Notes under the pieces: model-generated | What the model was told of the DNA's origin: nothing | The model's input: the letters and a program-made list of their open reading frames with translations, nothing else | The model's database searches: none | Translations under genes and position numbers: made by a program | In this document: positions 2,791-62,667 of the stretch, piece after piece | Position numbering within the stretch: position 1 is the first letter of the stretch | Layout: every line of letters begins with the position of its first letter | NCBI GenBank assembly: GCA_964291235.2 | Contig: OZ219816.1 | Span: 992,001 to 1,056,000, forward strand | Length of the DNA stretch: 64,000 nt | Direction of reading: 5' to 3' | Source of the DNA: Vicinamibacteria bacterium | GTDB lineage: Bacteria > Acidobacteriota > Vicinamibacteria > Marinacidobacterales > Marinacidobacteraceae

Positions 2791-2993
2791 TAACAGCCTG
2801 TGGCAAAACCCCCGCGGCCCAGTTCTCCCGGTGGGGGCTCGAGCGGCGATGCATCCCGTCTGAACCGCGCCTCTACGAGGCGCTCATCGTTGCGTTTCGG
2901 TCGAAATACACCTGGTATTCCTCCCTCACGCGCCTTGTCAGCCGGGCGCCTTGCCACTCTCGGTGCTCACGGGGGTTTCACCACAGGCTGCTA
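2791..2993 (+). mobile_element. MITE family A, copy 1 (TA-flanked; carries an 18-bp unit at 2819-2836)
   Basis: TA-ACAGCCTGTGGCAAAACCCC...GGGGGTTTCACCACAGGCTGC-TA terminal inverted repeats; core GTTGCGTTTCGGTCGAAATAAC-like segment (gttgcgtttcggtcgaaatac...gtattcctccctcacgcgcc) shared with other copies. Confidence 0.85.
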
Positions 2994-3003
2994 AAAGCGG
3001 GAA

Positions 3004-5394
3004 TCAGAAACTGAGATCCAGCTCGATCCCGATCGTCCGCGGTTCGCCGGCGCGGCCAAGCGCGCTGAAAATCGGAGCGGTCGGCTGCCACGCCTGGAGG
3101 AGATACGCCTCGTCGAGGAGGTTCCTCCCGAAGGCGAACACCCCGAAGTTGCCTCGCTGGTAGCCGAAGCGGGCGTTCACCAGCGTGCGCCCTCCGACCC
3201 GGAAGCGCGCGTCGTTACCGCTGTTCGAAAAGGCGTCGGCCTGTGCGGCGACCTCGGTGTTCCCTGACCAGTTGTCATCCAGCCGGACGGAAACCCCGGT
3301 CAGCCACGACCATGCCGGCGCGTGCGGGAACTCGTTCCCCGTGAAGTCCCGCTCCCCGTCGCGGAACTCGTCGAACCGGGTGCTGAGCAGGCCGAGCGAA
3401 CCGTAGAGCTGGACGCGCGGGTCGAGCCAGTAGCCGGTCTGCGCCTCCAGCCCGGTGACGGTGGATTCCCCGGCGTTGACGGTGACGGTGTCCACCGGAA
3501 GGCCGAGATCCGTCATCACCCGGACCTGCTGGTCGGTCCAGTCGGTGTAGAAGACATTCCCGTTGAAGAACCAGCGCCGGTCGGGAGCCGCCGCGCGCAG
3601 CGCGAACTCGACGTTGCTCGTGAACTCGGGCTCGAAATCACTGACCCGCTGGCTGAGGACGGCGATCGACTGCCCGCCGGCCCGATAACCCCGCTGCCAG
3701 CCGATCGAGGTGGACAGCGAGTCGGTCCAGTCGCGGGTCAGGGTGGCTTTCGGAAGAAAGGCCCGGTAGGAGGCGTCCAATTCCTGCGGGGGCCCCTCTG
3801 GCGGGAACTGCGGGAGGGGTGGATCGGAGACGACTCCCTGGCGGTTCACGGTCTCGCGGCTCTCGCTGTCGTAGCGGGCGCCGAGGGTGACGGTCCAGGC
3901 GTCGGCCAGGCCGAGGTCGAACTCGCCGAAGACGGCCGCGTTCCGCGTCGCTTCCTCGGTGTTGAAGAACGAGGTCAGGACGAACCCCGGGGGAAGTCCC
4001 GCGAGCTCGCCCGGGCCGGCGGCGTCCGCCTGCAGCGTGTCGGTCAGGTCTGCGAAATAAAGGCCCAGGACTCCACGCCGCCGGCCCGGCCCCTGGTAGC
4101 GCAGGAGGAACTCCTGGGTCATCCACTCGTCGTCGGTCGTGTAGTCGAGGACACCGGCTGCCAGGGGTGTCTGGTCCAGATCCTCCTCCCGGCGGTAGTC
4201 GTGCTGGTAGATGCTGGAGGTGGATTCGAGGGACAGCCGGTGGCTCAGGTCGTAGGCGAGCCCCAGCGTCACGTTGTGGTGCTCCGAACCGTCGGCGGCA
4301 GGGTGGTCCGAGATGTTGACGCGCTCCTCCGGAAAGCGGTCCACGTTGATCGCCCCGTCGCCGCCGCGGCTCTCGGTCGCCTGATAGGTGAGCATCCCCC
4401 GGAACCGGGCCGTCGGATCGAAGCGCAGCTTCATGCGGATCGCGAGGTAGTCGCGAAAGTCATAGGAGTCGTCTCCGCGGGTTGTGTTCTGGACGAACCC
4501 GTCGCTCTTTCGGTTGTCCACCGCGAGCCGGAAGGCGGCCTTGCCGGCCACGATGGGAACGTTCAGGACCGCCGAGCCCTGGGTGGCGCCGAGGTTGCCG
4601 AACCGGCCCCGCACCCGCACGGCAGTCCGGTATTCCGGATCGGTGCTCTTCATGACGATGGCGCCGGCAAGGGCGTTGCGCCCCTGCTGGGTGGACTGCG
4701 GCCCGCGGAAGATCTCCACCCGGTCCATGTCCCAGGTGCTGAACGGTCCGAAGAAAGTGCCCTGGTAGCCCTGCACCGTGGCGCCGTCCAGCTTGACGCT
4801 CAGCAGCAACCCGCCTTCGGGGCCAAAGCCCTGCTGGCTGATACCCCGGATGGAGAAACCGCGGACGTCGGAGGAGGAGTTGACGTTCGGCGTCATGGCG
4901 ACGAGCCGGGAAAGGTCGGTGTCGGTCCCGGAATCGAGTTGCGCTCCGGTAGCGAGCGCCACGCTGGTGGGTTCGTCCTGAAGACTCCTCTCCTGCTGCT
5001 GGCCGGTGACGGTCACCCGTTCCGCGAAGGACATGTCGAGCGGAATGCTGATGCGGACCTCGCCGGCGCTCCCGACCGTGATCTCGACGGTGCGGTCGGC
5101 GAAACCGCGCCCGAGCACGGTCAGACGGTGGAGGCCTTCCGGGAGCGTGTCGAAGCGGAACGATCCCGCCGCGTCGCTGGTGGTCTCCCGAATCTGGCCG
5201 TTCGCGAGGGTGAGGATCACGTTGGCGCCCGGAACCAGGAGTCCCTGCGGATCGGTGACCTCGCCTACGATCTCGGCTGCCGAGAGTGTGGTTCCGATCG
5301 CGGACGCGACCCCTGCTTCGGGGGACGCGGGTAAGAGGAGGCAGGAGAGCGCGGCGGTGGCAGCAAGAACGCGGCGCGGGACGAAGCGGGACAT
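3004..5394 (-). CDS. TonB-dependent receptor with N-terminal carboxypeptidase-regulatory-like domain
   Basis: Signal peptide MSRFVPRR, GEVTDPQG..VPGA domain, plug motif RVEIFRGPQST.QGRNALAGAI, C-terminal Phe. Confidence 0.9.
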   Translation of the reverse strand: MSRFVPRRVLAATAALSCLLLPASPEAGVASAIGTTLSAAEIVGEVTDPQGLLVPGANVILTLANGQIRETTSDAAGSFRFDTLPEGLHRLTVLGRGFADRTVEITVGSAGEVRISIPLDMSFAERVTVTGQQQERSLQDEPTSVALATGAQLDSGTDTDLSRLVAMTPNVNSSSDVRGFSIRGISQQGFGPEGGLLLSVKLDGATVQGYQGTFFGPFSTWDMDRVEIFRGPQSTQQGRNALAGAIVMKSTDPEYRTAVRVRGRFGNLGATQGSAVLNVPIVAGKAAFRLAVDNRKSDGFVQNTTRGDDSYDFRDYLAIRMKLRFDPTARFRGMLTYQATESRGGDGAINVDRFPEERVNISDHPAADGSEHHNVTLGLAYDLSHRLSLESTSSIYQHDYRREEDLDQTPLAAGVLDYTTDDEWMTQEFLLRYQGPGRRRGVLGLYFADLTDTLQADAAGPGELAGLPPGFVLTSFFNTEEATRNAAVFGEFDLGLADAWTVTLGARYDSESRETVNRQGVVSDPPLPQFPPEGPPQELDASYRAFLPKATLTRDWTDSLSTSIGWQRGYRAGGQSIAVLSQRVSDFEPEFTSNVEFALRAAAPDRRWFFNGNVFYTDWTDQQVRVMTDLGLPVDTVTVNAGESTVTGLEAQTGYWLDPRVQLYGSLGLLSTRFDEFRDGERDFTGNEFPHAPAWSWLTGVSVRLDDNWSGNTEVAAQADAFSNSGNDARFRVGGRTLVNARFGYQRGNFGVFAFGRNLLDEAYLLQAWQPTAPIFSALGRAGEPRTIGIELDLSF

Positions 5395-5485
5395 GGCGGG
5401 AACCTCAGCCGGGAAGACTACGCCGAAGGGCGGGTGAAAGATCCGTTCGCGCCGTCCGTACGCGATCCGCCGATCAGGAAAGCCT

Positions 5486-5528
5486 TTGACACATCTCAAT
5501 TGACACATTTCACATGCCACACCATACT
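5486..5528 (+). promoter_or_regulatory. Sigma70-type promoter with direct-repeat operator for the vapBC pair
   Basis: TTGACA (5500-5505), 17 bp, CATACT (5523-5528), then 6 nt to ATG 5535; TTGACACAT repeated at 5486 and 5500. Confidence 0.7.
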
Positions 5529-5534
5529 GGCCGC

Positions 5535-5843
5535 ATGTCCCGCCGCCACAAGGTCCAGGTCACGCTGAACGAGGTCGAATACGCCGCGGTCCGGCGCCGG
5601 GCCGAAGCCGAGGGTCTCAAGCACGCGGCCGTCGTCCGCGAGGCGATTCAGGAGTACTGCGTCAAGCCGGACCGGCGCCGGCGACAACTGGAGGCGCTGG
5701 AAGCGCTTCGCAGCATGCCGCCCGCGCCGGTTCCGGAGTCCTGGTCGGAGTGGAAACGGGAATACAGCCGCTTGAAGACAGCGTTTCGCGTCGCCGAATG
5801 GCCGCGGCGCGACGCCCCCGCGGACACCAAATCGAATGACTGA
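5535..5843 (+). CDS. Putative RHH/CopG-type antitoxin (VapB-like)
   Basis: KVQVTLNEVEY..VRRRAEAEG....VVREAI ribbon-helix-helix pattern; overlaps the start of the PIN gene. Confidence 0.7.
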   Translation: MSRRHKVQVTLNEVEYAAVRRRAEAEGLKHAAVVREAIQEYCVKPDRRRRQLEALEALRSMPPAPVPESWSEWKREYSRLKTAFRVAEWPRRDAPADTKSND

Positions 5844-6303
5844 GTCGCAGCCCCATCCGGGTGAGCGGCCGTTCGAGCCTCCTGGGGTGATCTTCGTCGA
5901 CGCGAACGTCTTCATGTACGCGGCGGGTGCGGATGCCAGGTGGCGGGAGACCTGTGACGCGGTGTTGGAGAGTCTTCAGGAGAGCAAGGTGCGGGTCGTG
6001 ACGAATGCGGAAGTCCTTCAGGAGATCCTCCACCGATACTTCGCCCAACATCGTCCTGGAGAGGCCCAAACTGTCCACCGCGCCGCTCAGGAACTTTGCG
6101 ACGAGATCATCCCGGTAACGGAACATCACACGACCCGCGCGCTCGCGCTGCTTCTCGAATACGAGGGGCTCTCCGCTCGCGACGCTGTTCACATCGCCAC
6201 AATGGAGGCGCGCGAGGTCCGCACCATCGTGTCGGCGGACCAGGGCTTTGATGCAGTGTCTGGCGTGGATCGAATCGACCCCCGGGACTTCGTCCGCGCC
6301 TGA
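5836..6303 (+). CDS. vapC: VapC-family PIN-domain toxin
   Basis: IFVDANVFMY, EVLQEI, LSARDAVHIA, SADQGFD acidic PIN motifs. Confidence 0.9.
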   Translation: MTESQPHPGERPFEPPGVIFVDANVFMYAAGADARWRETCDAVLESLQESKVRVVTNAEVLQEILHRYFAQHRPGEAQTVHRAAQELCDEIIPVTEHHTTRALALLLEYEGLSARDAVHIATMEAREVRTIVSADQGFDAVSGVDRIDPRDFVRA

Positions 6304-6352
6304 TCGGGTCCGGTCGGCGCCTGCCAGCGCCGGCGAGCCGTAGAATCCGGCG

Positions 6353-6793: not shown

Positions 6794-6841
6794 ACGGCCT
6801 GCCGCGTTCCACCCACGGAACCCACCGAGGAAAGGAAATCC

Positions 6842-8032: not shown

Positions 8033-8057
8033 CCGGGCGCCCGGCCCCTTCGGCGCA

Positions 8058-8740: not shown

Positions 8741-8746
8741 GGAGTC

Positions 8747-8767
8747 ATGGTAGCTACGGTAGCCACC
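8747..8767 (-). promoter_or_regulatory. Putative -10 element and operator of the phd-PIN pair
   Basis: On the minus strand TACCAT lies 6 nt before the ATG; tandem GGTAGC(T/C)AC repeats overlap it. Confidence 0.5.
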
Positions 8768-12562: not shown

Positions 12563-13206
12563 TGCGCAGGTACCCCCACCGGAAGAGCTGGGCCGGTCTT
12601 TGGCCGACGTCGCTCCGCACAGCGCAGCGAGATCCCGCCGTCAACTGTCCCGGGTGGCGCTGCAGCCCATCAATGTGGCGCTGCGCCACTCCCGTGCCTG
12701 TACGGCAAAGCACCGTCCGCGTTCAGGTTGGCGCAGGAGCGCCGGCCTCCGGCCGGCATCGCTTCGCGTAGCGGAGCGAAACTCCCGTCGTCAACTTTCC
12801 CCGATGGTGCTGCAGCCCAACGCCGTAGCGCTGCGCCACTCTCGGGCTGGTCCGGCGACGCGCCGCCCCGCTTGGGTCGGCGCCGTCGAGGCTGATCAAG
12901 TCGGGGAGTTTCGCCTCGCAGGAGCGCCGGCCTCCGGCCGGCATCGCTCCGCGCAGCGGAGCGAAACTCCCGTCGTCAACCCGATGGTGCTGCAGCCCAA
13001 CGCCGTAGCGCTGCGATTTCCCCGATGGTGCTGCAGCCCAACGCCGTAGCGCTGCGCCACTCTCGGGCTGGTCCGGCTACGCGCCGTCCCCGCTTGGGTT
13101 GGCGCCGTCGAGGCTGACCAGGTGTGGGAGTTTCGCCTCGCTGCGCTCGCCGATGCCGGCCGGGAGGCCGGCGCTCCTTGCGCTCCTCGCGCTCCTTGCG
13201 CTGCTA
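12563..13206 (+). repeat. REPIN-like array of three related units starting GGAGCGCCGGCCTCCGGCCGGCA, an internal 35-bp duplication and a 9-bp (Y)GCGCTCCT tail
   Basis: Units begin at about 12568 (degenerate), 12736 and 12921; the third closes with the inverted copy TGCCGGCCGGGAGGCCGGCGCTCC ending at 13177. Confidence 0.8.
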
Positions 13207-14867: not shown

Positions 14868-17228
14868 ATGGGCCGTTACGTAGGGACTTCGGTCAAGCGG
14901 GTGGAAGATCCGCGCTTCATACAGGGCAAGGGACGCTACGTCGCGAACCTGCAGATGCCGGGCATGGTCCACGTGGCCATCAAGCGCAGCCCCGAGGCTC
15001 ACGCCCGGATCACCGGGATGGACACCTCGGCGGCGAGCGCCATGGATGGCGTACTGGCTGTCTTCACCGGGCAGGACTTCAAGGACGGTGGCTGCGGTTC
15101 GCTCCCCTGCGGCTGGCTGGTGCCCGACACCAAGGTGCCCGATCGGCCGGTCGTGGTGACCGACCGCGTCTGCCATGTAGGGGATTCGGTGGCCGTCGTG
15201 GTTGCGGAGGATCCCTACGTCGCCGCCGATGCGGTCGAAGCGATCGAGGTGGACTACGAACCGCTCCCGACCGTGGTGGACGCCCGGGGCGCCACGGATG
15301 AGGGAGCGCCCCTCGTTCACGCGGAGATCGAGGACAACGTGTCCTACCACTGGGCGCTCGGAGATCAGGAGGCATGCGACAAGGCGTTTGCCGAAGCCGA
15401 CGAAGTGGTGGAGCTCGAACTGGTGAACCAGCGGCTCATCCCCACCGCGATGGAGCCGCGCGCCGCCGCGGCGCAGTGGGAGGCGGCTTCCGAAGAGATG
15501 ACCGTCTGGACGACCAGCCAGAATCCGCATCCGATCCGGCTGCTGCTCTCGGCGTTCACGCTCGGAATCCCCGAGAGCAAGTTGCGGGTGATCTCGCCGG
15601 ACGTCGGCGGCGGCTTCGGCAGCAAGATCTTCCACTACCCCGAGGAAGTCATCGTGCCGTGGGTGGCGCGCCAGGTCGGGCGCCCCGCCCGCTGGGTGGC
15701 GACGCGGACCGAGAGCCAGATGACCGATTCCCAGGGACGGGATCACGTCACCGTGGCCAAGCTCGCCGTGCAGGGCGACGGCACCTTCACCGGGCTCGAC
15801 GTGGAGACCTGGGCGAACCAGGGGGCCTACCTCTCCACCTTCGCCCCCCTCATTCCCACCGCGCTCTACATCACGCTGCTCTCCGGCAACTACAAGATGC
15901 CCGGAGTGTTCGGCAAGGTGCACGGCACGCTCACGAACACGGTGCCGGTGGACGCCTACCGGGGCGCTGGCCGCCCGGAGGCCGCCTACCTCGTCGAGCG
16001 CCTGGTGGACCTGGCGGCAGCCCGGCTCGGCCGGGACCCGCTGGAGCTCCGGCGCCAGAACGCGATACCCAAGGAGGACTTTCCCTACCAGACCCCGGTC
16101 GCGTTCCTGTATGACAGTGGGGACTACGACCGGCTGATGGCGACGGCTGCCGATCGGGCGGACTACGCCGGGATGCGCGAGGCGCAGGCCGAGGCGCGCG
16201 CCGACGGCAAGCTACGGGGCGTCGGGGTGGTCTGCTGCATCGAGGCCAGCGGTCCGGCGCCCTCGGCGGTAGCGGGCTCGCTGGGCTCTGCCGTGGGCTT
16301 TTGGGAGAGCGGAGAAATTCGGATCCATCCGACGGGGCAGGTGAGCGTCTTCACCGGCTCCCACACCCATGGCCAGGGGCATGAGACCACCTTCGCCCAA
16401 GTGGCCGCCGATGAACTGGGAGTGCCGATCGAAAGTGTGGAGGTCGTCCACGGCGACACCGGCCGCGTCAACTTCGGCATGGGCACCTACGGGAGCCGGA
16501 GCGCCTGCGTGGGCGGCTCGGCGCTCGTGCGGAGCGCCGAGAAAGTGCGGGCGAAGGTCCTCAAGATCGGCGCCCACCTGCTCGAGGCCGCGGAAGAAGA
16601 TGTCGTGTACGACCAGGAGTCCGGCCGGGTGCACGTGAAGGGCTCTCCTGACCGCGGAAAGGAATTCGGCGAACTCGCCTTCGCCGCCTACACCGCGCAC
16701 AGCCTTCCCGAGGGAATGGAACCGGGGCTCAACTTCGTGAGCTTCTACGATCCGGCCAACTTCACGTTCCCGGCGAGTTCGCACATCTGCGAGGTGGAGG
16801 TCTGCTCCGACACCTGGGAGGTGCGGATCCTCCGCTACGTGGCGGTGGACGATGTTGGCAAGGTGATCAACCCGATGATCGTGGAGGGCCAGATCCAGGG
16901 CGGAATCGTCCAGGGGGTCGGCCAGGCGCTGACCGAGATCGGCGCCTATTCCGACGACGGCCAACTGCTTTCCGGCACCCTCCTCGAGTACGCCGTCCCG
17001 CGGGCGGACCTGCTGCCCGGAATCGAGGTGGACCGGATCGAGACCCCGTCGCCCCACAACCCGCTCGGGGTCAAGGGCGCCGGCGAGATGGGCACCATCG
17101 CGGCCACGCCAGTCGTCGCGAACGCCGTGCTCGATGCGCTTGCTCCTTTGGGAGTTACCCACATTGAGCTTCCGCTCACTCCGGAGAGGATCTGGCGCGC
17201 CGTCCGGGCGGCCCGCAGCGCCGCCTGA
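14868..17228 (+). CDS. coxL: CoxL/CutL-like molybdopterin large subunit, form II (AYRGAGR)
   Basis: GGGFGSK, AYRGAGRPEA, GQGHET, GVKGAGE motifs. Confidence 0.92.
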   Translation: MGRYVGTSVKRVEDPRFIQGKGRYVANLQMPGMVHVAIKRSPEAHARITGMDTSAASAMDGVLAVFTGQDFKDGGCGSLPCGWLVPDTKVPDRPVVVTDRVCHVGDSVAVVVAEDPYVAADAVEAIEVDYEPLPTVVDARGATDEGAPLVHAEIEDNVSYHWALGDQEACDKAFAEADEVVELELVNQRLIPTAMEPRAAAAQWEAASEEMTVWTTSQNPHPIRLLLSAFTLGIPESKLRVISPDVGGGFGSKIFHYPEEVIVPWVARQVGRPARWVATRTESQMTDSQGRDHVTVAKLAVQGDGTFTGLDVETWANQGAYLSTFAPLIPTALYITLLSGNYKMPGVFGKVHGTLTNTVPVDAYRGAGRPEAAYLVERLVDLAAARLGRDPLELRRQNAIPKEDFPYQTPVAFLYDSGDYDRLMATAADRADYAGMREAQAEARADGKLRGVGVVCCIEASGPAPSAVAGSLGSAVGFWESGEIRIHPTGQVSVFTGSHTHGQGHETTFAQVAADELGVPIESVEVVHGDTGRVNFGMGTYGSRSACVGGSALVRSAEKVRAKVLKIGAHLLEAAEEDVVYDQESGRVHVKGSPDRGKEFGELAFAAYTAHSLPEGMEPGLNFVSFYDPANFTFPASSHICEVEVCSDTWEVRILRYVAVDDVGKVINPMIVEGQIQGGIVQGVGQALTEIGAYSDDGQLLSGTLLEYAVPRADLLPGIEVDRIETPSPHNPLGVKGAGEMGTIAATPVVANAVLDALAPLGVTHIELPLTPERIWRAVRAARSAA

Positions 17229-17258
17229 TCAGTGACCAGCGAATAGGAGACTGCTTCG

Positions 17259-18116
17259 ATGTATCCGAACCAATTCGACTACCACCGCGCCGCTTCGGTC
17301 GCCGAGGCGGTGGAGCTACTTTCTTCGCTGGCCGACGCCAAGCTGGTCGCGGGTGGGCACAGCCTGATCCCAGCCATGAAACTGCGCGCGGCGCAGCCGG
17401 CGGCGCTGGTGGACATTGGCCGGATTCCGGGACTCGCCGACATCTCCGGAGACGGGGACAGCCTGGTGATCGGGGCGCTCGCCACCCACTCCTCGGTGGC
17501 CGGCTCGGCGGCGGTTCAGGGAGGATGCCCGATGCTCGCGGAGGCGGCCGCGGCGATCGGGGACATCCAGGTCCGGAACCGGGGAACGATCGGAGGCAGC
17601 CTGGCGCACGCGGATCCGGGCGCCGACTACCCGGCTGCGATGCTGGCGCTCGGCGCCGAAATCACCGCGGTGGGCGCCGGAGGTGAGCGAACCATCGCCG
17701 CGTCGGACTTCTTTGTGGACATTCTGACCACTGCGTTGGCCGAGAATGAGGTCATCACTTCGGTGCGGGTTCCGTGTGCTGCCGGGAGCGCTTATCTGAA
17801 GCATCGGCATCCGGCCTCCAGCTACGCGGTCGTCGGGGTTGCCGCCTCGGTGGTCCTGGACGGCGGCAATGTCGCGAGCTGTGCAATCGGCATCAACGGG
17901 GTGGCCGGGAAGGCGGTGCTCGCCGAAGCGGCGGCCGCGGCGCTTTGCGGCGGCCCGGCGAACGCCGCGCGCATCGCGGAAGCGGCGGGTCTCGTAGGGG
18001 GAGCCTGCGGCGACGCGCTCGGTGACCTCTATGCCTCCGGCGAATTCCGGACCCATCTCGCCGGGGTGTACACGGGGCGGGCGCTGGCCGCCGCCGCCGA
18101 ACGCGCGGCAGGCTGA
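17259..18116 (+). CDS. coxM: CoxM/CutM-like FAD subunit
   Basis: AGGHSLIP.MKLR, QVRNRGTIGGSLAHADP. Confidence 0.92.
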   Translation: MYPNQFDYHRAASVAEAVELLSSLADAKLVAGGHSLIPAMKLRAAQPAALVDIGRIPGLADISGDGDSLVIGALATHSSVAGSAAVQGGCPMLAEAAAAIGDIQVRNRGTIGGSLAHADPGADYPAAMLALGAEITAVGAGGERTIAASDFFVDILTTALAENEVITSVRVPCAAGSAYLKHRHPASSYAVVGVAASVVLDGGNVASCAIGINGVAGKAVLAEAAAAALCGGPANAARIAEAAGLVGGACGDALGDLYASGEFRTHLAGVYTGRALAAAAERAAG

Positions 18117-43130: not shown

Positions 43131-43333
43131 CAGGAGCCCGAGGACCGGACGACGTGAGCGCCGAGGGGCGCAAGGCCCGGTTCTCCCGGTGGGGGTCTGA
43201 TGGATCGGACGCACGAGGGAGAAATACCGAATGTCCTTCGACCGAAACAAAACGATGATGGACGCGAAGGCGCGTGGTTCGGCCGGGAGGGTTCGCCGGC
43301 CGAACACCGCATGACTATGTGCACAGGCTGCTG
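43131..43333 (-). mobile_element. MITE family A, degenerate reverse copy (18-bp unit at 43177-43194)
   Basis: CACAGGCTGC terminus at 43322-43331; reverse-strand core TTTCGGTCGAA...GGTATTTCTCCCTC and CTCGGCGCTCACG. Confidence 0.7.
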
Positions 43334-45049: not shown

Positions 45050-46432
45050 GTGACACGTGAATCCGCGATCGCCGAGACCATCCTCGATACGGTCGGGGAC
45101 ACGCCGCTGGTCGGGCTGCGGCGGATCGGCCAGGGACTTCCCGGCCGGGTCGCGGTGAAGATGGAGTCCTTCAATCCCGGCGGCTCCGTGAAGGACCGGA
45201 TCGCGATCTCCATCGTGGAGGACGCGGAGCGCCGCGGCGATCTGAAGCCCGGCGGGACGATCATCGAGGGGACCTCGGGCAACACCGGGATGGGTCTCGC
45301 GCTGGTTGCCGCGGTGAAGGGGTACCGCTCCATCTTCGTGATGCCGGACAAGATGAGCGACGAGAAGATCCGGGCGCTCCGGGCGCTCGGCGCCGAGGTG
45401 GTGGTGACCCCGACTGCGGTGGAACCCGAAGATCCGCGCAGCTACTACAGCGTGGCCAAGCGTCTGGTTGATGAGACCCCCGGCGCGCTCTACGCCAACC
45501 AGTACCACAACCCTGTAAATCCCGAGACCCACTACCGGACGACCGGACCGGAACTGTGGGGACAGGTCGGCCCCGAAATCCACACGCTGGTCTGCGGGCT
45601 CGGGACCGGAGGCACCATCACGGGCACCGGCCGTTACCTGAAGGAACAGAATCCGGAGATCCGGGTGGTTGGCGCCGACCCGGTCGGCTCGCTCTACGAC
45701 GAGTACTTCCGCACCGGAAAGATCGGCGAGGCCCGCAGCTACAAGGTGGAAGGGATCGGCGAGGACTTCATCCCTTCCACCATCGACTTCGCGGTGGTGG
45801 ACGAGGTGATCCAGGTCACCGACCGGGACTCCTTCGTGATGACCCGGCGCCTGGCCCGCGAAGAGGGGCTCTTCGTCGGCGGCTCGGCGGGCACCGCGAT
45901 GGTTGCGGCGCTCGAAGCGGCTTCCCGGGTACCGCCGGGCGCGCTCGTCGTGGTGCTGGCTCCCGACGCCGGGGGGCGGTACCTGTCCAAGATCTTCAGC
46001 GACGACTGGATGCGCCAGAACGGCTTCCTCGAAACCGCCCGGGACGGCGCGAGGGTGGGCGATGTTCTCGCCTCGAAGGGGGGACAGGAGATCCTCAGTG
46101 TTCCGGAGAGCGCAGGTGTCCGGGAAGTGGTCGCGCTGATGCGAAAGCACGACGTCTCCCAGCTTCCCGTGCGGGACGACAGCGGCTTCACCGGGGTGGT
46201 CACGGAGGCTTCGCTTCTGGATGGCCTCTTCTCCGGAGGGGTCGGACGGAGTGATCCGATCCGCGCCTTCGTAAAGACGGACAAGATCGCGTCCGTGGAT
46301 GCGGGAAGCCCGCTTGAAGAGCTGGCCCAGATCTTTGCCGGCGGCCGTATTACGGTAGTGACCGAGGCCGGACGGGCCGTCGGCCTCCTCACCCCGATCG
46401 ACCTGCTCGACTACCTCTCGCGGGAGGGTTAG
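45050..46432 (+). CDS. cbs: Cystathionine beta-synthase with C-terminal CBS domains
   Basis: NPGGSVKDR, TSGN, NQY.NP.NP..HY, GLGTGGT, YKVEGIGEDF, CBS pair; GGAGGT RBS. Confidence 0.9.
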   Translation: MTRESAIAETILDTVGDTPLVGLRRIGQGLPGRVAVKMESFNPGGSVKDRIAISIVEDAERRGDLKPGGTIIEGTSGNTGMGLALVAAVKGYRSIFVMPDKMSDEKIRALRALGAEVVVTPTAVEPEDPRSYYSVAKRLVDETPGALYANQYHNPVNPETHYRTTGPELWGQVGPEIHTLVCGLGTGGTITGTGRYLKEQNPEIRVVGADPVGSLYDEYFRTGKIGEARSYKVEGIGEDFIPSTIDFAVVDEVIQVTDRDSFVMTRRLAREEGLFVGGSAGTAMVAALEAASRVPPGALVVVLAPDAGGRYLSKIFSDDWMRQNGFLETARDGARVGDVLASKGGQEILSVPESAGVREVVALMRKHDVSQLPVRDDSGFTGVVTEASLLDGLFSGGVGRSDPIRAFVKTDKIASVDAGSPLEELAQIFAGGRITVVTEAGRAVGLLTPIDLLDYLSREG

Positions 46433-46632
46433 CAGCCTGGGGCATACCCCACGCGGCCCAGTTCTCCCGGTGGGGGCTCGACGGGCGATGCATCCCGGCG
46501 GAATCGCGCCTCTAGGAGGCGCTCATCGTTGCGTTTCCGTCGAAACAAACTCGGTATTCCTCCCTCACGCGCCTGGTCAGCCAGGCGCCTCACCCGTCTG
46601 TTGACTCGTGTGAGTTTCACCACGGGCTGCTA
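46430..46632 (+). mobile_element. MITE family A, copy 3 (18-bp unit at 46458-46475)
   Basis: TA-GCAGCCTGGGGCA...GTTTCACCACGGGCTGC-TA, starting in the cbs stop codon. Confidence 0.85.
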
Positions 46633-46648
46633 AGAGCGGCAGCTCCGC

Positions 46649-55871: not shown

Positions 55872-55874
55872 CCT

Positions 55875-57089: not shown

Positions 57090-57179
57090 CCTGACCGTTC
57101 TCGCTGACCCTGCCGGTCCCACCGAGGTGGTTGCGCGCCCGGTAGGGCAGCCCCGCCGGAAGGCCGGGAAGACCTTGGT

Positions 57180-58922: not shown

Positions 58923-58937
58923 GCGGAAACCGCCCTT

Positions 58938-59690
58938 TCAGAGACCGCTCAGGTAACTGGCGCCGCCGAGCTGCGCTACCGCCGCCTGGATCTCGCGGGT
59001 CCGACGGGTCACATATTCCGATGGTTGTGCCGCTGACATGCGTTTGGGGCTCGGGAGTACGGCGACCAGGGTCGCGGCCTGGCGAGGAGTGAGGTCACCC
59101 GGTTCCCGGCCGAATGCATGCCGGCTTGCCGCCAACACCCCGAAGATGCCGGGACCAAACTCGGCCACGTTCAGATAGACCTCGAGGATCCGACGCTTCG
59201 GCCACATGAGTTCGAGGGCGACGGTGAAGTACGCCTCGAGGCCCTTCCGGACAAGGTTCTGGCCTGGCCAGAGGTAGAGATTCTTGGCGACCTGCTGCGA
59301 GATGGTGCTGGCGCCCCGGAGGCGTCCGCCGCGGCGGTTCCGCTCCAGCGCGTCGGAGATGGCGTCGAGGTCAAAACCGAAATGGTCGGGGAACTTCTGG
59401 TCTTCGGCTGCCACCGCGGCGATGGGAAGGTGGGGCGAGATGGCGTCGCGGGGCGCCCACTGGTAGTGGACCGTTCCCTCGCCCACGATGCGCTCGCGGA
59501 GCATGAAGGCGCTGGTCGGCGGCGGAATCCAGCGCCACGGCAGCACCAGGACGACCGTCAGAGCGACCCACGCGCCCGCCACCATGAGGGCCAGCCGGGT
59601 AAACCGGCCCAAACGCCGTTTGCCGCTCCCGGAAGCCGGGGCAGCGGGTTCGCTACGGTCCGGTTGGATCTGGGTCTCGATAGGCGCCAT
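58938..59690 (-). CDS. mtgA: Monofunctional peptidoglycan transglycosylase
   Basis: AAEDQKF..HFGFD, RGASTISQQVAKNL, RKGLEA, K.RILE.YLN. Confidence 0.93.
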   Translation of the reverse strand: MAPIETQIQPDRSEPAAPASGSGKRRLGRFTRLALMVAGAWVALTVVLVLPWRWIPPPTSAFMLRERIVGEGTVHYQWAPRDAISPHLPIAAVAAEDQKFPDHFGFDLDAISDALERNRRGGRLRGASTISQQVAKNLYLWPGQNLVRKGLEAYFTVALELMWPKRRILEVYLNVAEFGPGIFGVLAASRHAFGREPGDLTPRQAATLVAVLPSPKRMSAAQPSEYVTRRTREIQAAVAQLGGASYLSGL

Positions 59691-61326
59691 CACCCGTGGT
59701 TTGCTCGATTGCCAGCGTCCGGGTGGGGAAGGCGAAGTCCACGCCGATCTCCTTCGCCAGCCGCAGGATGGAAAGCAGGAAGTTGTGCCGCTCGGACAAC
59801 TCGGCATGCCAGTCGGGAACCCGGAAGAAGCAGTAAACGAGAACATCCACCGACGAATCCGAAAAGCGATTCAGGTGGATCTCGAAATAGTCGTGGCGCA
59901 TCGCCGGGTTCTTGAGGATGAGACCCTGTACGCCATCGACGAACGCCTGGATGCGATCGGGGTCGGTGTCGTAGCGCAGCGACAGCATGTGTTTCATCCG
60001 TCGGTACTTGCGCTGTCCCATGTTGTCCACGATCGAGTTCACGACCTTGCTGTTCGGGACGCTGACCACGGAGTCGTAGAAGGTGCGGACGCGGGTTGAG
60101 CGCAGGCCGACCCGCTCGACCGTTCCCTCGTAGCCGTCCACCAGAACCCAGTCGCCGACCTGGAACGGCCGGTCGCCGACGATGGCGAGGGAACCCATCA
60201 CGTTCGCGAGGGTGTCCTGTGCTGCGAGGGCAATGGCGAGACCTCCGAGTCCGAGACCGGCGACCAGAGTGGTGATCGAGTACCCCTGGCTCTGGGCAAT
60301 CAACAGGATTGCAACGATGAGCGAGCCGACGCGCAGGGCCGTGCGGGCGAGAGGAACCAGGTGGTCGTCCACCTTGGTCTCGGTCTTCGCGGTAATGGCT
60401 TCGAGTCGGGTACAGAGCGCGTCGATGGCCCGGTAGGCGAACCAGACCGCGATCGCGGCCAACGTCAGGTCGAGGAGGACCGTCAGTACCTGGTTGATCA
60501 GTACCGGAAACCGCAAGTCCGCGAGGAAGCGGCGGAAGACCCACACCGAGGCGAGCCACGAAGCCGGCACGGCCGCCGCCGCCATTTCCTCGACGGCCCA
60601 GCCGGCGCGCCGGTTTGCGAAGCGGACCAGGAAGCCCCGAAAGAAGAGGCCGAAAAGCCACTGGGCGGCCCAGGCGAGGCCGGCGAGGATGCCGAGGCCG
60701 ATGAGTTGCCAGAGCGTGAAGCCCAGAAAGGAACGTTCCACCACGGGAGGGAGCAGGTCGAGGAGCCGACGGGCGTACCACGAGAAGGTGCTCTCATAGA
60801 GGCTCTCGGCAGCCCCTACGGTGCGCGCCGAGATCTGCCACGCCCGATCCTCGCCCCGCCGGAGCTGGAATTCCGGAAGCCGGATCGGGAAGGGCGTGAA
60901 GACGGCCTCGCGGGCGTCCGGGTCCACGTACTCCGGGTCCGCGGGCACGGCCTCCATGCGCACGAACAGGCCCCGGCCATCGAGAACCGACTTGAGCTGG
61001 CTGGCGACGAGACGCCGTTCGCCCGAAGCGACGCTCGGGTCGAAGTTGAGGGTTGCGGTGACCGAGTCCCAGGAGATCTCGTCCGCCAGCTGCCCCCCGA
61101 GAAAGGTGTTAAGGGTCGTTCGCGGACTGCGTAGATCCTCGGGGACCGACGACGCCGGAGCCTGAGCGCCGGCGGTCGTGGCCGAGGCGAGCAGCGCGAG
61201 GGCTAACAGCCCGTGGTGAAAAACCCGTGAGCGCCGCTCGAGCCCCCACCGGGAGAACTGGGACGCGGGGGTTTTGCCACCGGCTGTTGATGCGGGTCGG
61301 AAGATCATGCGAGCTTGATCACTCAT
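59653..61326 (-). CDS. mscS: Mechanosensitive channel MscS family with N-terminal periplasmic domain; signal peptide interrupted in frame by a mini-MITE
   Basis: GLGLGGLAIALAAQDTLAN, PFQVGDW, GLRSTR, VPN, FAFPTRT. Confidence 0.9.
   Translation of the reverse strand: MSDQARMIFRPASTAGGKTPASQFSRWGLERRSRVFHHGLLALALLASATTAGAQAPASSVPEDLRSPRTTLNTFLGGQLADEISWDSVTATLNFDPSVASGERRLVASQLKSVLDGRGLFVRMEAVPADPEYVDPDAREAVFTPFPIRLPEFQLRRGEDRAWQISARTVGAAESLYESTFSWYARRLLDLLPPVVERSFLGFTLWQLIGLGILAGLAWAAQWLFGLFFRGFLVRFANRRAGWAVEEMAAAAVPASWLASVWVFRRFLADLRFPVLINQVLTVLLDLTLAAIAVWFAYRAIDALCTRLEAITAKTETKVDDHLVPLARTALRVGSLIVAILLIAQSQGYSITTLVAGLGLGGLAIALAAQDTLANVMGSLAIVGDRPFQVGDWVLVDGYEGTVERVGLRSTRVRTFYDSVVSVPNSKVVNSIVDNMGQRKYRRMKHMLSLRYDTDPDRIQAFVDGVQGLILKNPAMRHDYFEIHLNRFSDSSVDVLVYCFFRVPDWHAELSERHNFLLSILRLAKEIGVDFAFPTRTLAIEQTTGDGAYRDPDPTGP
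61204..61289 (-). mobile_element. Mini-MITE A (82 bp, internally deleted; 18-bp unit at 61244-61261) inside the mscS coding sequence
   Basis: Reverse strand ACAGCCGGTGGCAAAACCCCCGCG...GCTCGAGCGGCG|CTCACGGGTTTTTCACCACGGGCTGT-TA, collinear with both ends of copy 1. Confidence 0.85.
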
Positions 61327-61355
61327 GGGCGCTCCAAGGGGTATGCCGGGCGGCG

Positions 61356-61429
61356 TACGCCTGGCAGGACTCGAACCTGCGACCTACGGATTAGGAATCC
61401 GTCGCTCTATCCACCTGAGCTACAGGCGC
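61356..61429 (-). tRNA. tRNA-Arg(CCT)
   Basis: Reverse complement GCGCCTGTAGCTCAGGTGGATAGAGCGACGGATTCCTAATCCGTAGGTCGCAGGTTCGAGTCCTGCCAGGCGTA; CCA not encoded. Confidence 0.93.
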
Positions 61430-61509
61430 ATCGATTGCCGGACGACGCGCGGGCAATCGTAGCGCCTGAACTGGTCAACAAATCGCCGGGAGGAACGCTT
61501 CGGAGGCCG

Positions 61510-62067
61510 CTACCGGTAGGTCAGAACCGTGTGCACGGGGGCGCCAAGGCGAGCGAGACGTTCCGCCCCGCCGAGCGGCAGGAGCGCGATCAGGAGGGAA
61601 AAGCCGGCCACCGTGACCCCGAGGCGCCGACAAAGGCGGAATGCCGCCGCCGCCGTGCCGCCGGTGGCGAGGACATCGTCCACGATGAGTACCCGGTGGC
61701 CCCCGCTCAGGGCGTCCCGGTGCATTTCGAGCGCGCCCCGGCCGTACTCGAGTTCGTAGGCTTCGGCGACCGTCGGTGCGGGGAGTTTCCCCGGCTTGCG
61801 AATCGGCACGAGGGGGACGCCGAGTTCCAGGGCGACTCCGGCGCCGAAGAGGAATCCGCGGCTCTCGATGGCCACGACCGCGTCCACCGGAGCGTCTCCG
61901 AAGGGAGAAGCCAGAGCCTGGACCGCTTCCCGGAATGCCTCGCTATCGGCCAGAAGCGGCGTGATGTCCCGAAACAGGACTCCCGTCTCGGGAAAATCGG
62001 GGACGCTGCGGATCCGGGCCTTCAGCCGGGAGGCGAGACCGTCCTCAGTGGACGATGCGGAAGTCAT
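61510..62067 (-). CDS. apt: Adenine phosphoribosyltransferase
   Basis: IRSVPDFP..GVLFRDITPLL, ESRGF, RKPGKLP, VLIVDDVLATGGT. Confidence 0.95.
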   Translation of the reverse strand: MTSASSTEDGLASRLKARIRSVPDFPETGVLFRDITPLLADSEAFREAVQALASPFGDAPVDAVVAIESRGFLFGAGVALELGVPLVPIRKPGKLPAPTVAEAYELEYGRGALEMHRDALSGGHRVLIVDDVLATGGTAAAAFRLCRRLGVTVAGFSLLIALLPLGGAERLARLGAPVHTVLTYR

Positions 62068-62332
62068 CCGGTCGGCCCCCTGGGTCCGGCAGCTCGACGG
62101 TGTCTTCCAGGATGGCGTCGACACGTCCGGGCATTTCGGTCTGCAATGCGCTCCGGAACCTCTCCAGGACTTCGGGGATGGCGAAGGCGCGGATTTCCAC
62201 CGTGCCGTCGGGGCGGTTCTTCACTGCCCCCCGGACTCCGAGCGCCCGGGCCAGACGCGCCGTACTCCACCGGAATCCGACTCCCTGAACGAAACCGGAA
62301 ACCAGGTAGCGTCGAGCGACCAGCTCTCCCAC
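62045..62332 (-). CDS. acyP: Acylphosphatase
   Basis: VSG.VQGVGFR, G.VKN.PDG.VE. Confidence 0.88.
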   Translation of the reverse strand: MGELVARRYLVSGFVQGVGFRWSTARLARALGVRGAVKNRPDGTVEIRAFAIPEVLERFRSALQTEMPGRVDAILEDTVELPDPGGRPDDFRIVH

Positions 62333-62338
62333 GGCGCT

Positions 62339-62667
62339 TAGCAGCCTGTGGCAAAACCCACGCGGTATTCCCGAGCCAAGAGAGAAGGGGGACGGGCAAA
62401 CCCGTCCCCCGTCTCTCTCGCTCCGGGGTCTGCGCGCGGCTCGCGCCGCGCTCCGGAAACGACGAGCGATGCATCCCGGCTGGCCCCCACCGGGAGAACT
62501 GGCCGCGCCTCTGCGAGGCGCTCATCGTTGCGTTTCGGTCGAAATACGCTCGGTATTCCTCCCTCACGCGCCGCCCCCACCGGGAGAACTGGGTCAGCCG
62601 GACCCCCACCGGGAGAACTGGGCCTCACTCGTCTCGGTGCTCGCGTGCGTTTCACCACAGGCTGCTA
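62339..62667 (+). mobile_element. MITE family A, copy 4 (composite: hairpin module plus three 18-bp units)
   Basis: TA-GCAGCCTGTGGCAAAAC...GTTTCACCACAGGCTGC-TA; the right end supplies the stop codon of the minus-strand gene ending at 62665. Confidence 0.88.

What the first reader, a model, noticed from the sequence alone, without database searches (positions are those of the whole stretch)
2819..62621. An 18-bp unit (CCCCACCGGGAGAACTGG) that inserts into other repeats: candidate minimal mobile element or insertion footprint
Seen: 8 copies at 2819-2836, 12574-12591, 43177-43194, 46458-46475, 61244-61261, 62485-62502, 62575-62592 and 62604-62621; six are identical. All copies I found lie inside repeat elements. 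Aligning filled with empty repeat copies gives a net +18 bp at five different host positions. Site A: CGCGGC^GCTCG in copies 1, 3 and the mini copy, empty in copy 2, reverse orientation. Sites B-D: in copy 4, forward orientation, with D shared by the 43.1-kb copy. Site E: in an unrelated REP family. The context is R-C[unit]G in 7 of 8 copies, no target duplication is obvious, and the 1-3 bases on the CCCC side often differ from the empty allele. The unit is not palindromic and has no stop codon in any of the six frames. Inference: multiple positions, both orientations and two host families are not explained by slippage or simple inheritance. This suggests an enzyme writes a fixed 18-21-mer into hairpin-rich DNA, for example an excision scar of an IS110/IS1111-like or HUH element that targets REPs, or an RT-templated insertion. 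I do not recognise it as a described element.
Basis: partly seen in the sequence, partly recalled or inferred. Interest (0 to 1): 0.82.

Follow-up and report, generated by a model that had tools for sequence, protein, structure and literature searches.

The report
Tiny 18-base insert, IS110 landing site
A fixed 18-base DNA word has been written into more than a hundred different places in the genomes of one family of marine Acidobacteria, including in frame into housekeeping genes, and an insertion sequence uses this word as its landing site, yet the machinery that spreads the word is still unknown.

Summary
CCCCACCGGGAGAACTGG occurs 8 times in the window (chance 0.19). It occurs 121 times at ≤1 mismatch in this 3.45-Mb genome and 0 to 1566 times in relatives. 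It is letter-identical across 5 genera of one Vicinamibacteria family and was not found in two sister families.

Host MITE copies come in lengths of 185, 203, 221, 239, 257 and 275 bp. After units are removed, 33 of 38 are exactly 185 bp. I count about 118 distinct flank contexts, in both orientations, with tandem 18+18 copies. Relatives carry three in-frame +6-residue inserts in CoaBC, Mfd and Lhr compared with this genome.

The unit is not a hairpin. It shows no replication-strand bias and matches no tRNA.

New here: an IS110-family element splits the unit at one fixed position in 14 of 14 copies in three species. The unit is therefore this element's target.

The mover was not identified. 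RT is missing from 13 of 15 genus genomes. The RAYT gene and this IS subfamily are missing from several high-copy genomes. The closest known kind is the cyanobacterial small dispersed repeats (SDRs). I class it as a new variant of a known kind.

The parts
2819..2836 (-). exact unit at 'site A' of a 203-bp MITE copy (MITE 2791-2993)
   Evidence: Empty MITE copies are 185 bp.
12574..12591 (+). unit variant (2 mismatches) at the 5' foot of a REP-like hairpin
43177..43194 (-). unit variant (1 mismatch) in a degenerate MITE copy
46458..46475 (-). exact unit at site A of a 203-bp MITE copy (46430-46632)
61244..61261 (+). exact unit inside a mini-MITE (61204-61290), next to tRNA-Arg
   Evidence: Short-read contigs of other runs end exactly at 61261.
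62485..62502 (+). exact unit at site B of the 329-bp MITE copy (62339-62667)
62575..62592 (+). exact unit at site C of the same MITE copy
62604..62621 (+). exact unit at site D of the same MITE copy
62339..62667 (+). host MITE copy carrying three units plus an unrelated insert of about 95 bp. The MITE is absent from the same inter-gene spot in the other genus genomes.

Best explanation
The unit is a lineage-specific, very small insertion module. It has an 18-nt non-palindromic core and reaches 19-21 nt when the semi-conserved flanks (G)C...(G/C) are counted. It has been written de novo into more than 100 different sites: internal loops, bulges and stem-loop junctions of a 185-nt hairpin MITE, the foot and stem of REP hairpins, loops of other small hairpins and, in relatives, in frame into housekeeping genes. 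Each event adds 18 bp (19 at GG^CC sites in REP stems), makes no target duplication, and often changes 1-3 bases next to the CCCC end. Copy number then also rises passively when the host repeats multiply.

Shown: multi-site insertion, constant size, sequence constancy across genera, and use of the unit as the specific integration site of an IS110-family element.

Inferred: the unit spreads by copy-and-paste from existing copies as a short single strand or a templated patch, with co-conversion of adjacent bases. A trans-acting factor that recognises the sequence would drive this. That factor is not a reverse transcriptase, not the genome's RAYT and not the unit-targeting IS itself. The only sequence-specific machinery linked to the unit here is the IS110 bridge-RNA recombinase class, which makes it the best candidate class, but no element with matching donor ends was found.
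For: - **Size quantisation.** MITE lengths are quantised and 33 of 38 full copies are exactly 185 nt once units are stripped.
- **Empty counterparts.** 134 of 160 units have a unit-less counterpart elsewhere in the genome. 28 of 46 site classes give a net +18, and the REP-stem classes give +19.
- **Many contexts.** About 118 distinct flank contexts occur among 460 units.
- **Coding inserts.** Three in-frame +6-residue inserts occur in relatives against this genome's orthologs: CoaBC, Mfd and Lhr.
- **Low divergence.** Units carry 5 mismatches in 540 nt (0.9%), while the MITE sequence around them is 8.1% from consensus.
- **Conservation.** The unit is present in 15 of 15 genus genomes and 5 of 9 other genomes of the family, and in 0 of 16 genomes of two sister families, with 0 to 1566 copies. 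This genome's REP hairpin version is species-specific by contrast: 151 copies here and <=45 elsewhere.
- **Unpaired sites.** By my mapping onto the predicted fold, 5 of 6 MITE sites lie at unpaired positions or stem-loop junctions.
- **IS110 link.** The IS110 element splits the unit after base 4, with CC on both sides, in 14 of 14 copies, in at least three host contexts. PF01548 matched all 7 tested genomes with >=87 units and none of the 5 with <=1 unit.
- **Published chemistry.** Xie et al., bioRxiv 10.64898/2026.08.31.748434 (abstract and sections 8 and 9 read) report single-stranded circles, copy-and-paste and recombination on arms as short as 5 bp for IS621.
Against: - No mover was identified, and no recurrent gene sits beside units in about 0.9 Mb of unit-bearing loci.
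- G019 has 70 units but no PF01548 match and no RAYT match. G023 has 17 units and no PF01548 match.
- The link between IS110 presence and unit number is expected anyway if these IS elements need repeats as targets. The genomes are also related, so they are not independent.
- My hand simulations of IS110-type core exchange did not reproduce the observed junctions.
- There is no replication-strand bias (82 against 78), unlike IS200/IS605-type single-strand transposition.
- The low divergence of units could reflect selection or gene conversion rather than recent insertion.
- Sites at unpaired positions may reflect what the MITE tolerates rather than where insertion happens.
- No orthologous filled/empty pair closer than about 72-82% DNA identity was available, so exact junctions in unique DNA are unresolved.
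Confidence: 0.5

Rival explanations
1. The unit is a product of IS110 chemistry. It would be either the scar left when an IS110/IS1111-type element leaves, or an interior-less mini-IS110 (left arm + core + right arm) moved in trans as an 18-nt single-stranded circle.
For: An IS110 element recognises the unit with base precision in 14 of 14 copies. Its left end holds CCGCCGGGAG and TATAGGGGCT stretches that look like guides to the unit and the left junction (read; inference). PF01548 presence tracks unit number in 12 of 16 genomes at the extremes. The constant length, tandem 18+18 copies and copy-and-paste pattern fit the single-strand-circle and half-match chemistry reported for IS621 (bioRxiv 10.64898/2026.08.31.748434; abstract and sections 8 and 9 read).
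Against: The ends of the three IS110 families examined do not match the unit halves. No split unit with a long interior was seen in this genome apart from the 5 insertions of the unit-targeting IS itself. The unit-targeting subfamily was not found in G001, G008 (only 43% relatives) or G019. Canonical excision restores the target and leaves no scar. Unit sites share only a weak GC-rich consensus, unlike an 11-14 nt guide-specified target.
Confidence: 0.15
2. The unit is a functional word kept by selection or molecular drive, such as a DNA-uptake-signal-like sequence or the binding site of a conserved protein. The insertions would be rare products of generic template switching that are then favoured.
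For: The unit is invariant across 5 genera while REPs are species-specific. The two strands are used equally (96 + and 98 -). The flank consensus decays like an extended motif. No mover gene was found. Density reaches about 1 per 2.6 kb in G013. Two of the three genic inserts are in DNA-repair genes, Mfd and Lhr. A bias of uptake sequences to such genes is known from Neisseria (recalled, not checked).
Against: Nearly all copies lie inside MITE or REP repeats and not spread through genes. New copies arise as exact +18 insertions and not by substitution. Generic template switching would spread many different short words, but a 14-mer census shows only this one besides REP and MITE cores. Competence genes and a receptor were not tested.
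Confidence: 0.15
3. Replication template switching or gene conversion between GC-rich hairpin repeats alone spreads the unit, using GC...GCC microhomology, with no dedicated factor.
For: Flanks are GC-rich and often inverted repeats of each other. Bases next to the unit are co-converted. Flank classes co-vary: CC|U|CGC against GC|U|GCC. Tandem copies and inverted pairs occur.
Against: The size stays constant at unrelated sites, including unique coding DNA. Only one such word exists in the genome. The sequence is identical across genera whose coding DNA is only about 70-84% identical.
Confidence: 0.1
4. The genome's REP-associated tyrosine transposase (RAYT, HUH class) cuts and pastes the unit as single-stranded DNA.
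For: A RAYT gene (NF047646, 92 bits against a cut-off of 80) lies at contig C1 about 16150-16924. It is flanked on both sides by about 125-bp arrays of the REP hairpin that hosts many units. Units sit exactly at the foot of that hairpin.
Against: No RAYT match was found, even at E<=1 (family model) or E<=10 (protein), in G013 (1566 units), G004 (776), G018 (259) or G019 (70). The RAYT flanks hold no unit. The unit is not a hairpin. There is no strand bias.
Confidence: 0.05
5. A reverse transcriptase copies the unit from an RNA template into nicked DNA.
For: The sequence is fixed and tandem copies occur.
Against: RVT_1 matched 0 times in this genome and only 2 of 15 genus genomes. None of G013, G004 or G008 had a match.
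Confidence: 0.02

Closest known systems
Small dispersed repeats (SDR1-8) of Nostocaceae (Elhai et al. 2008, Genome Res 18:1484)
   Same: Both are very small (21-27 nt there, 18-21 here) dispersed repeats that sit inside other repeats and minitransposons at precise positions. Both vary between related genomes and have an unknown mover. SDR5 inserts precisely between bases 3 and 4 of the HIP1 octamer (passage in PMC4390886).
   Different: I could not read the paper itself, because PMC2527708 is not held. What I cite comes from passages in PMC5861425 and PMC4390886 and from my memory of the abstract. As recalled, SDR4-6 share a hairpin fold, whereas this unit does not fold. The phylum differs. 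The IS110 link and the in-frame gene inserts are shown here. [quoted passage not shown]
REP/REPIN elements with RAYT transposases (Nunvar 2010, PMC2817692, abstract read; Bertels and Rainey 2011, PMC3116915, passages read)
   Same: Both are short, abundant, mostly extragenic repeats and occur in clusters. A RAYT flanked by REP arrays is present in this genome.
   Different: The unit is not palindromic. It does not flank the RAYT. Its abundance does not follow RAYT presence. It is conserved across genera, while REPs are species-specific.
Repeat-specific targets of IS110-family elements (IS621 and bridge RNAs, PMC11208160, search listing only; ISPpu10, bioRxiv 10.64898/2026.03.19.712850, abstract read)
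   Same: All copies of the IS sit at one position of one conserved repeat. A dinucleotide (here CC) is present on both sides, and the orientation is fixed.
   Different: Here the target is itself a tiny insert nested in REPs and MITEs. The bridge RNA of this element is only inferred: there was no Rfam match.
Mobile GC clusters of yeast mitochondria (Wu and Hao 2015, PMC4478555; abstract and section 17 read)
   Same: Both are gene-less inserts of tens of bases with rapid turnover. Both show possible co-conversion of flanks and have an unknown amplification mechanism.
   Different: The GC clusters are palindromic, carry putative target duplications, and live in an organelle that encodes RT and endonucleases.
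Rickettsia palindromic elements (recalled from my own knowledge; no paper read)
   Same: Both are selfish repeats tolerated in frame inside protein-coding genes.
   Different: Those elements are 100-150 bp and palindromic. Here the insert is 18 nt, which is 6 codons with no stop in any frame.

Membership tests
Small dispersed repeats (SDR) of cyanobacteria | Dispersed repeat of about 20-27 nt present in many copies | tested here: met
   18-nt core, 19-21 nt with flanks. 121 copies at <=1 mismatch here and up to 1566 in a relative.
Small dispersed repeats (SDR) of cyanobacteria | Found nested at precise positions inside other repeats or minitransposons, and differing between related genomes | tested here: met
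Small dispersed repeats (SDR) of cyanobacteria | Shared hairpin secondary structure (SDR4-6; recalled from the abstract) | tested here: not met
   Fold energies are no better than shuffles: z = 0.39, 0.43, 0.46 and -0.09.
Small dispersed repeats (SDR) of cyanobacteria | Sequence relatedness to a described SDR family, or occurrence in Nostocaceae | not testable with these tools
   The paper and its sequences are not held. The organism is an Acidobacteriota MAG lineage according to record titles.
REP/REPIN-RAYT system | Imperfect palindrome forming a hairpin | tested here: not met
REP/REPIN-RAYT system | The cognate repeat flanks the single-copy RAYT gene | tested here: not met
   The RAYT flanks carry REP hairpin arrays but no unit.
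REP/REPIN-RAYT system | Abundance follows presence of the RAYT | tested here: not met
   No RAYT was found in G013, G004, G018 or G019, which hold 1566, 776, 259 and 70 units.
IS110-family target (attachment) site | All copies of the IS are inserted at the same position and orientation of the sequence | tested here: met
   14 of 14 copies: 5 in G000, 6 in G014 and 3 in G004. The right end was seen for 1 of the 3 G004 copies.
IS110-family target (attachment) site | Core dinucleotide present on both sides of the inserted IS | tested here: met
   ...GC-CCCC|IS|CC-ACCGGG..., so CC is on both sides.
IS110-family target (attachment) site | Bridge RNA in the non-coding end with guides matching the target | tested here: inconclusive
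   The left end holds CCGCCGGGAG (9 of 10 matches to unit bases 3-12) and TATAGGGGCT, which is the complement of the left junction. There was no Rfam match. No structure or covariation test was done.
IS110 excision scar or interior-less mini-IS110 | A full-length parent whose two ends equal the two parts of the unit | tested here: not met
   Three IS110 families were examined and their ends are unlike the unit halves. This genome has no such split unit. One end of the 43% family was not fetched.
MITE of a DDE transposon | Terminal inverted repeats and target-site duplication | tested here: not met
   The unit halves match as inverted repeats at 3 of 9 positions (my count from the sequence). 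No duplication is seen at junctions.
RT-templated insertion (retron, DGR, group II intron) | A reverse transcriptase gene in genomes where the unit is abundant | tested here: not met
   RVT_1 matched 2 of 15 genus genomes and none of G000, G013, G004 or G008.
DNA uptake signal sequences | Non-palindromic word, strand-symmetric, abundant, shared by a family | tested here: met
DNA uptake signal sequences | Spread through genes and spacers, arising by substitution | tested here: not met
   Nearly all copies lie in MITE or REP repeats and arise as +18 insertions.
DNA uptake signal sequences | Competence machinery with a sequence-specific receptor | not tested
   No search was made.

The most novel reading that the evidence does not exclude
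A previously unrecognised way of writing DNA. A trans-acting, sequence-specific machine copies a fixed, unstructured 18-nt word from existing copies and pastes it at unpaired positions all over the genome. The machine might be an IS110-type RNA-guided recombinase working on tiny single-stranded circles. The pasting needs no hairpin, inverted repeats, target duplication or reverse transcriptase. The word in turn serves as a self-made landing pad for a full-size IS110 element.
Probability: 0.3. Interest if true: 0.9.

Novelty: new variant of a known kind. Interest (0 to 1): 0.72.

Why it matters
Mobile DNA below about 30 bases has been reported only rarely, and no mover has been identified for it. 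This case offers an unusually clean system for three reasons:
- It is one invariant word with exact +18 steps and hundreds to more than a thousand copies in some complete genomes, against none in close relatives.
- It produces in-frame six-residue inserts in essential genes.
- It has a direct physical tie to an RNA-guided IS110 recombinase.

It makes a standing question testable: how do very small repeats move? The routes are comparative gene content across the 0-to-1566-copy series and reconstitution with the IS110 enzyme. If that enzyme class can move 18-base single-stranded circles, this bears on the off-target behaviour and design of bridge-recombinase editors. The unit also matters for annotation, because it breaks short-read assemblies and adds residues to proteins.

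Tried and rejected
- **Split-unit search in this genome.** I searched unit 10-mers outside full units. Only chance-looking coding hits appeared. The five IS110 insertions had been scored as 2-3-mismatch units and were recognised only later.
- **Strand run in G018.** The listing seemed to show a run of one strand. It was an artefact of truncated output and I dropped it.
- **tRNA-derived origin.** The best ungapped match was 14 of 20 among 59 tRNA/tmRNA genes. Rejected.
- **Phage origin.** 1 exact hit in the viral contig collection. Rejected.
- **Rfam.** Only two tRNAs in the window, and nothing in the IS locus at E<=1.
- **Recurrent neighbour gene.** Clustering 381 ORFs from loci L011-L124 gave only paralogous peptidase-like families.
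- **Genes between unit pairs.** Nothing relevant turned up.
- **Orthologous filled/empty MITE comparison.** Not possible, because the MITE at 62339-62667 is absent from the other genus genomes. In the 13 genomes where both flanking matches are listed, they lie <=31 bp apart.
- **Sequencing runs.** No RNA holder was listed. Laid contigs break at the repeats and gave no clean unit presence/absence call.
I replaced it with blastn-short.
- **Hand simulations of IS110-type core exchange** with core CC or GC did not reproduce the observed junctions.
- **The site-A flank tally** mis-anchored, and I do not use it.
- **Literature searches.**
  - 'small dispersed repeat' + 'cyanobacterial genomes' + 'mobile': 3 papers.
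  - 'SDR5' + 'Nostoc' + 'repeat': 2 papers.
  - 'Marinacidobacterium': 0 papers.
  - 'bridge RNA' + 'IS110' + 'IS621': 23 papers.
  - None of the listings or passages I read describes this unit.
  - Supplements were not consulted.
- **Earlier notes for this genome:** none.

Full report
**1. Observation**

The pattern CCCCACCGGGAGAACTGG matches the window 8 times at up to 3 mismatches, at exactly the reported coordinates. Six copies are exact, the copy at 43177 has one mismatch and the copy at 12574 has two. The expected count is 0.19, and none of 100 shuffles reaches 8.

Reading the flanks shows that every copy lies in a repeat:
- two 203-bp copies of a MITE with ends TAGCAGCCTGTGG... (window 2791-2993 and 46430-46632);
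- a mini version of the same MITE (61204-61290);
- a 329-bp copy with three units (62339-62667);
- a decayed copy near 43.2 kb;
- a REP-like hairpin at 12.57 kb.

**2. Scale in this genome**

The window lies in a 3.45-Mb assembly of two contigs. The assembly holds 194 matches at up to 3 mismatches: 83 exact, 38 with one mismatch, 39 with two and 34 with three. Of these, 96 are on one strand and 98 on the other. Several of the 3-mismatch hits look like chance matches in coding DNA.

A 14-mer census shows the unit, extended by majority rule to GC-unit-G, as the third most abundant repeat core. It ranks after two REP hairpins, and no second short non-palindromic word of this kind appears.

**3. 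Insertion, not inheritance**

Pairing MITE ends gave 62 elements. Those without a unit measure 185 bp (19 copies, plus two each at 184 and 186). Lengths by unit count are:

| Units | Length (bp) | Copies |
|---|---|---|
| 1 | 203 | 7 |
| 2 | 221 | 1 |
| 3 | 239-240 | 5 |
| 4 | 257 | 1 |
| 5 | 275 | 1 |

After units are removed, 33 of 38 full-length copies are exactly 185 nt.

- At least seven positions of the MITE are used, in both orientations. Perfect head-to-tail 18+18 pairs and inverted pairs also occur.
- For 134 of 160 units (<=2 mismatches), a BLAST of the joined flanks finds a unit-less counterpart elsewhere in the genome.
- Grouped into 46 site classes, 28 give a net +18. The classes in REP stems (GG^CC) give +19. 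Most of the rest are low-identity alignments.
- Across this genome and about 0.9 Mb of loci from relatives, 460 units fall into about 118 flank contexts under a crude de-duplication.

**4. Junctions**

The base before the unit is C in 129 of 160 copies (100 of 118 contexts). The base before that is G in 98 of 160. After the unit come G or C, then C, then C.

In well-matched filled/empty pairs the bases next to the CCCC end differ from the empty copies while length is kept. The changes seen are AC to GC, AA to GC, TT to GC, TT to CC and ATA to GC..C. In one REP subfamily the change runs the other way, GC to AC. No target duplication is seen.

This looks like co-conversion of a few flanking bases, or later adjustment of a weak extended motif. 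I cannot tell which.

Mapped onto the predicted single-strand fold of the MITE, which is a long imperfect hairpin, five of six sites lie in internal loops, bulges or stem-loop junctions. Other sites are loops of small hairpins and the foot of the REP hairpin. This may reflect where insertion happens, or only where it is tolerated.

**5. Unique coding DNA**

Three units in relatives lie in real genes, and this genome's orthologs lack exactly six residues at those places:

| Gene | Relative and locus | With unit | This genome |
|---|---|---|---|
| CoaBC | G009, L139 | ...EGPTSSPGGGPTGG... | ...EGPD------PTGG... |
| Mfd | G011, L142, and the same locus L098 | ...LGGPPPGELVRPVL... | ...LGA------TRPVL... 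|
| Lhr helicase | L117 | ...LLAASSPGGGPADEGG... | ...VLAP------PAREGG... |

Evidence is, with Pfam domains. The ORF filter flagged 43 of 492 units examined. By eye most were spurious frames running through repeats. Only these three were verified, and one further hit (L092) is a chance match in an unrelated actinobacterial MAG.

The unit therefore also enters non-repeated DNA. Its length (six codons) and its lack of stops in any frame explain why this is tolerated.

**6. Distribution and conservation**

At up to one mismatch the unit is present in 15 of 15 other genomes of the genus and in 5 of 9 genomes of other genera of the same family. It is present in 0 of 16 genomes of two sister families. 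The reversed-pattern control gave 0 or 1 per genome.

Counts in genomes of one to four contigs range widely:

| Genome | Units |
|---|---|
| G013 | 1566 |
| G004 | 776 |
| G008 | 692 |
| G018 | 259 |
| this genome (G000) | 121 |
| G014 | 87 |
| G019 | 70 |
| G009 | 15 |
| G020 | 1 |
| G017, G022, G024 | 0 |

G001 (20 contigs) has 747. Low counts in fragmented short-read MAGs may be assembly loss.

An exact-match scan of public genomes returns almost only MAGs titled Candidatus Marinacidobacterium, Vicinamibacteria or Acidobacteria. There are four stray single hits, in Georgenia, Pseudarthrobacter, a gammaproteobacterial MAG and an Acidimicrobiaceae MAG. Independent assemblies and Logan contigs from several studies contain the unit, so it is not an adapter or assembly artefact.

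Coding DNA of the genus is only about 70-84% identical at the locus tested. The REP hairpin version of this genome is species-specific, with 151 copies here and at most 45 elsewhere. Yet the unit is letter-identical across genera.

Inside MITE copies the units carry 5 mismatches in 540 nt (0.9%), while the surrounding MITE sequence is 8.1% from its consensus. The units are therefore either much younger than their hosts, or homogenised, or constrained.

**7. What the unit is not**

- It does not fold. The z-scores against shuffles are 0.39, 0.43, 0.46 and -0.09.
- It shows no replication-strand bias: 82 on the G-rich strand against 78.
- It matches no tRNA or tmRNA. The best match is 14 of 20.
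- It is not phage-borne. There is one hit in the viral collection.
- Reverse transcriptase (RVT_1) is absent from this genome and matched only 2 of 15 genus genomes. None of G013, G004 or G008 had a match.

**8. The RAYT**

This genome has one REP-associated tyrosine transposase (NF047646, 92 bits against a cut-off of 80; Pfam Y1_Tnp partial). It lies at contig C1 about 16150-16924. It is flanked on both sides by about 125-bp tandem arrays of the REP hairpin, in the classical arrangement. Units often sit at the foot of that hairpin or inside its stem elsewhere, but none lies in the RAYT flanks.

No RAYT was found in G013, G004 or G018 with the family model at E<=1. None was found in G013, G004, G018 or G019 with the protein at E<=10. 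Nunvar et al. (PMC2817692, abstract) report a strong correlation between a RAYT and its cognate REPs, and the unit breaks that rule.

**9. The IS110 link**

Pfam DEDD_Tnp_IS110 matches five identical loci in this genome. Aligning the five copies shows an element of about 1.54 kb with a 420-residue transposase.

The element always lies in a unit at the REP foot: ...GGGAGC-CCCC | TATAGGATCGG...(IS)...CGTGGAAAGT | CC-ACCGGGAGAACTGG-GCCGGCC.... The unit is split after base 4, and CC is present on both sides.

The same holds elsewhere:
- all six copies of the 82%-identical element in G014, one of which is in MITE site A;
- three copies of the 64-65%-identical element in G004, whose left flanks are other REP sites. 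The right end was seen for one of these.

That makes 14 of 14 copies, in at least three host contexts and always in the same orientation. The unit itself is therefore the target.

The non-coding left end contains CCGCCGGGAG (9 of 10 matches to unit bases 3-12) and TATAGGGGCT, which is the complement of the left junction. I read these as probable bridge-RNA guides. That is an inference: there was no Rfam match.

This fits known IS110 biology:
- ISPpu10 inserts only into copies of one conserved intergenic sequence (bioRxiv 10.64898/2026.03.19.712850, abstract).
- IS621 uses a bridge RNA and a core dinucleotide (PMC11208160, search listing only; details recalled).

**10. Is the IS110 class also the mover?**

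For:
- Across 16 genomes searched with PF01548, all seven with 87 or more units have a match (G000, G001, G004, G008, G013, G014, G018).
- All five with at most one unit have none (G020, G017, G022, G024, G021).
- The intermediate genomes split: G009 yes, G016 weakly, G019 and G023 no.
- Xie et al. (bioRxiv 10.64898/2026.08.31.748434; abstract and sections 8 and 9) report that IS621 excises a single-stranded circle, leaves the donor intact, and can recombine on one arm as short as 5 bp. This would make an 18-nt, interior-less derivative chemically conceivable.

Against:
- The unit-targeting subfamily was not found in G001 or G019. G008 has only 43% relatives, and G013 has only fragments of the subfamily.
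- The ends of three IS110 families examined are unlike the unit halves. Two of those families target REP stems or another repeat.
- Unit sites share only a weak consensus.
- The correlation is expected anyway if these IS elements need repeats to land in, and the genomes are kin.
- My hand simulations of core exchange did not reproduce the junctions.

I keep this as the leading candidate class, at low confidence.

**11. Verdict**

The unit is a real micro-insertion module. In behaviour it is the closest counterpart of the cyanobacterial small dispersed repeats. It differs from them in being unstructured, in its phylum, in entering genes in frame, and in serving as the landing site of an IS110 element. 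I could not read the SDR paper itself. I rely on passages in PMC5861425 and PMC4390886 and on memory of its abstract.

Earlier notes of this scan describe the 185-nt hairpin MITE of sponge-associated Acidobacteria and tiny nested hairpin inserts in other phyla. Those inserts are hairpins and this one is not. The scan had no note on this genome.

The mover remains unidentified. RT and RAYT are disfavoured by their absence from the richest genomes. An IS110-type mechanism, a drive or binding-site function, and plain template switching remain open.

Noticed in passing
outside the window: G000 contig C1 about 15551-17500: A single REP-associated tyrosine transposase gene (about 243 residues, C1 16150-16924) is flanked on both sides by about 125-bp tandem arrays. 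The arrays contain the REP hairpin GCCGGCCTGGAGGCCGGC. The upstream neighbour is coaBC.
   Followed up: yes
outside the window: G000 contig C2 at about 869.0, 908.8, 1236.5, 1778.0 and 2040.9 kb: Five near-identical copies of an IS110-family element of about 1.54 kb, each inserted in a unit at the foot of a REP hairpin.
   Followed up: yes
loci L191-L194, L196 (G004, G013) and L198-L200 (G018): Two further IS110 families are present. One abuts GGAACGCCGG, which is a REP stem. The other abuts GTATGGAGCGCC, with a unit about 57 nt upstream in two of its three copies. One end of the first family was not fetched.
   Followed up: partly
outside the window: G000 contig C1 438273-440050: A tandem array of about 55 copies of a 32-bp period containing AGCTCCGGTCGATATCCGGG, with a smaller related array near C1 1062.3-1062.6 kb. 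Its nature is unknown.
   Followed up: no
window 62366-62460: An extra insert of about 95 bp with its own hairpin (GGGGGACGGGCAAACCCGTCCCCC) lies inside the MITE copy that carries three units. Contigs of runs X3 and X6 join 62365 to 62460 without it, possibly from other MITE copies.
   Followed up: no
window 46432-46645: In runs X1 and X3 a contig replaces the 212 bases of the MITE at this locus with 111 other letters. This suggests a different allele of the spacer in a closely related population.
   Followed up: no
window 57084: One contig of run X5 (depth 2.9) lacks 18 bases here, between direct repeats of CGCTGACC. This is an ordinary slippage deletion and is unrelated to the unit.
   Followed up: partly
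outside the window: G000 contig C2 1720150-1720720: Five tandem copies of a 137-bp period, each holding a unit variant followed by two REP-type hairpins.
   Followed up: partly
relatives G019, G005, G009 (listings): A variant of the unit with G at position 13 (..GGGAGGACTGG) is common. It accounts for 21 of the 33 one-mismatch copies in G019 and occurs in many contexts, as if two alleles of the word both propagate.
   Followed up: no
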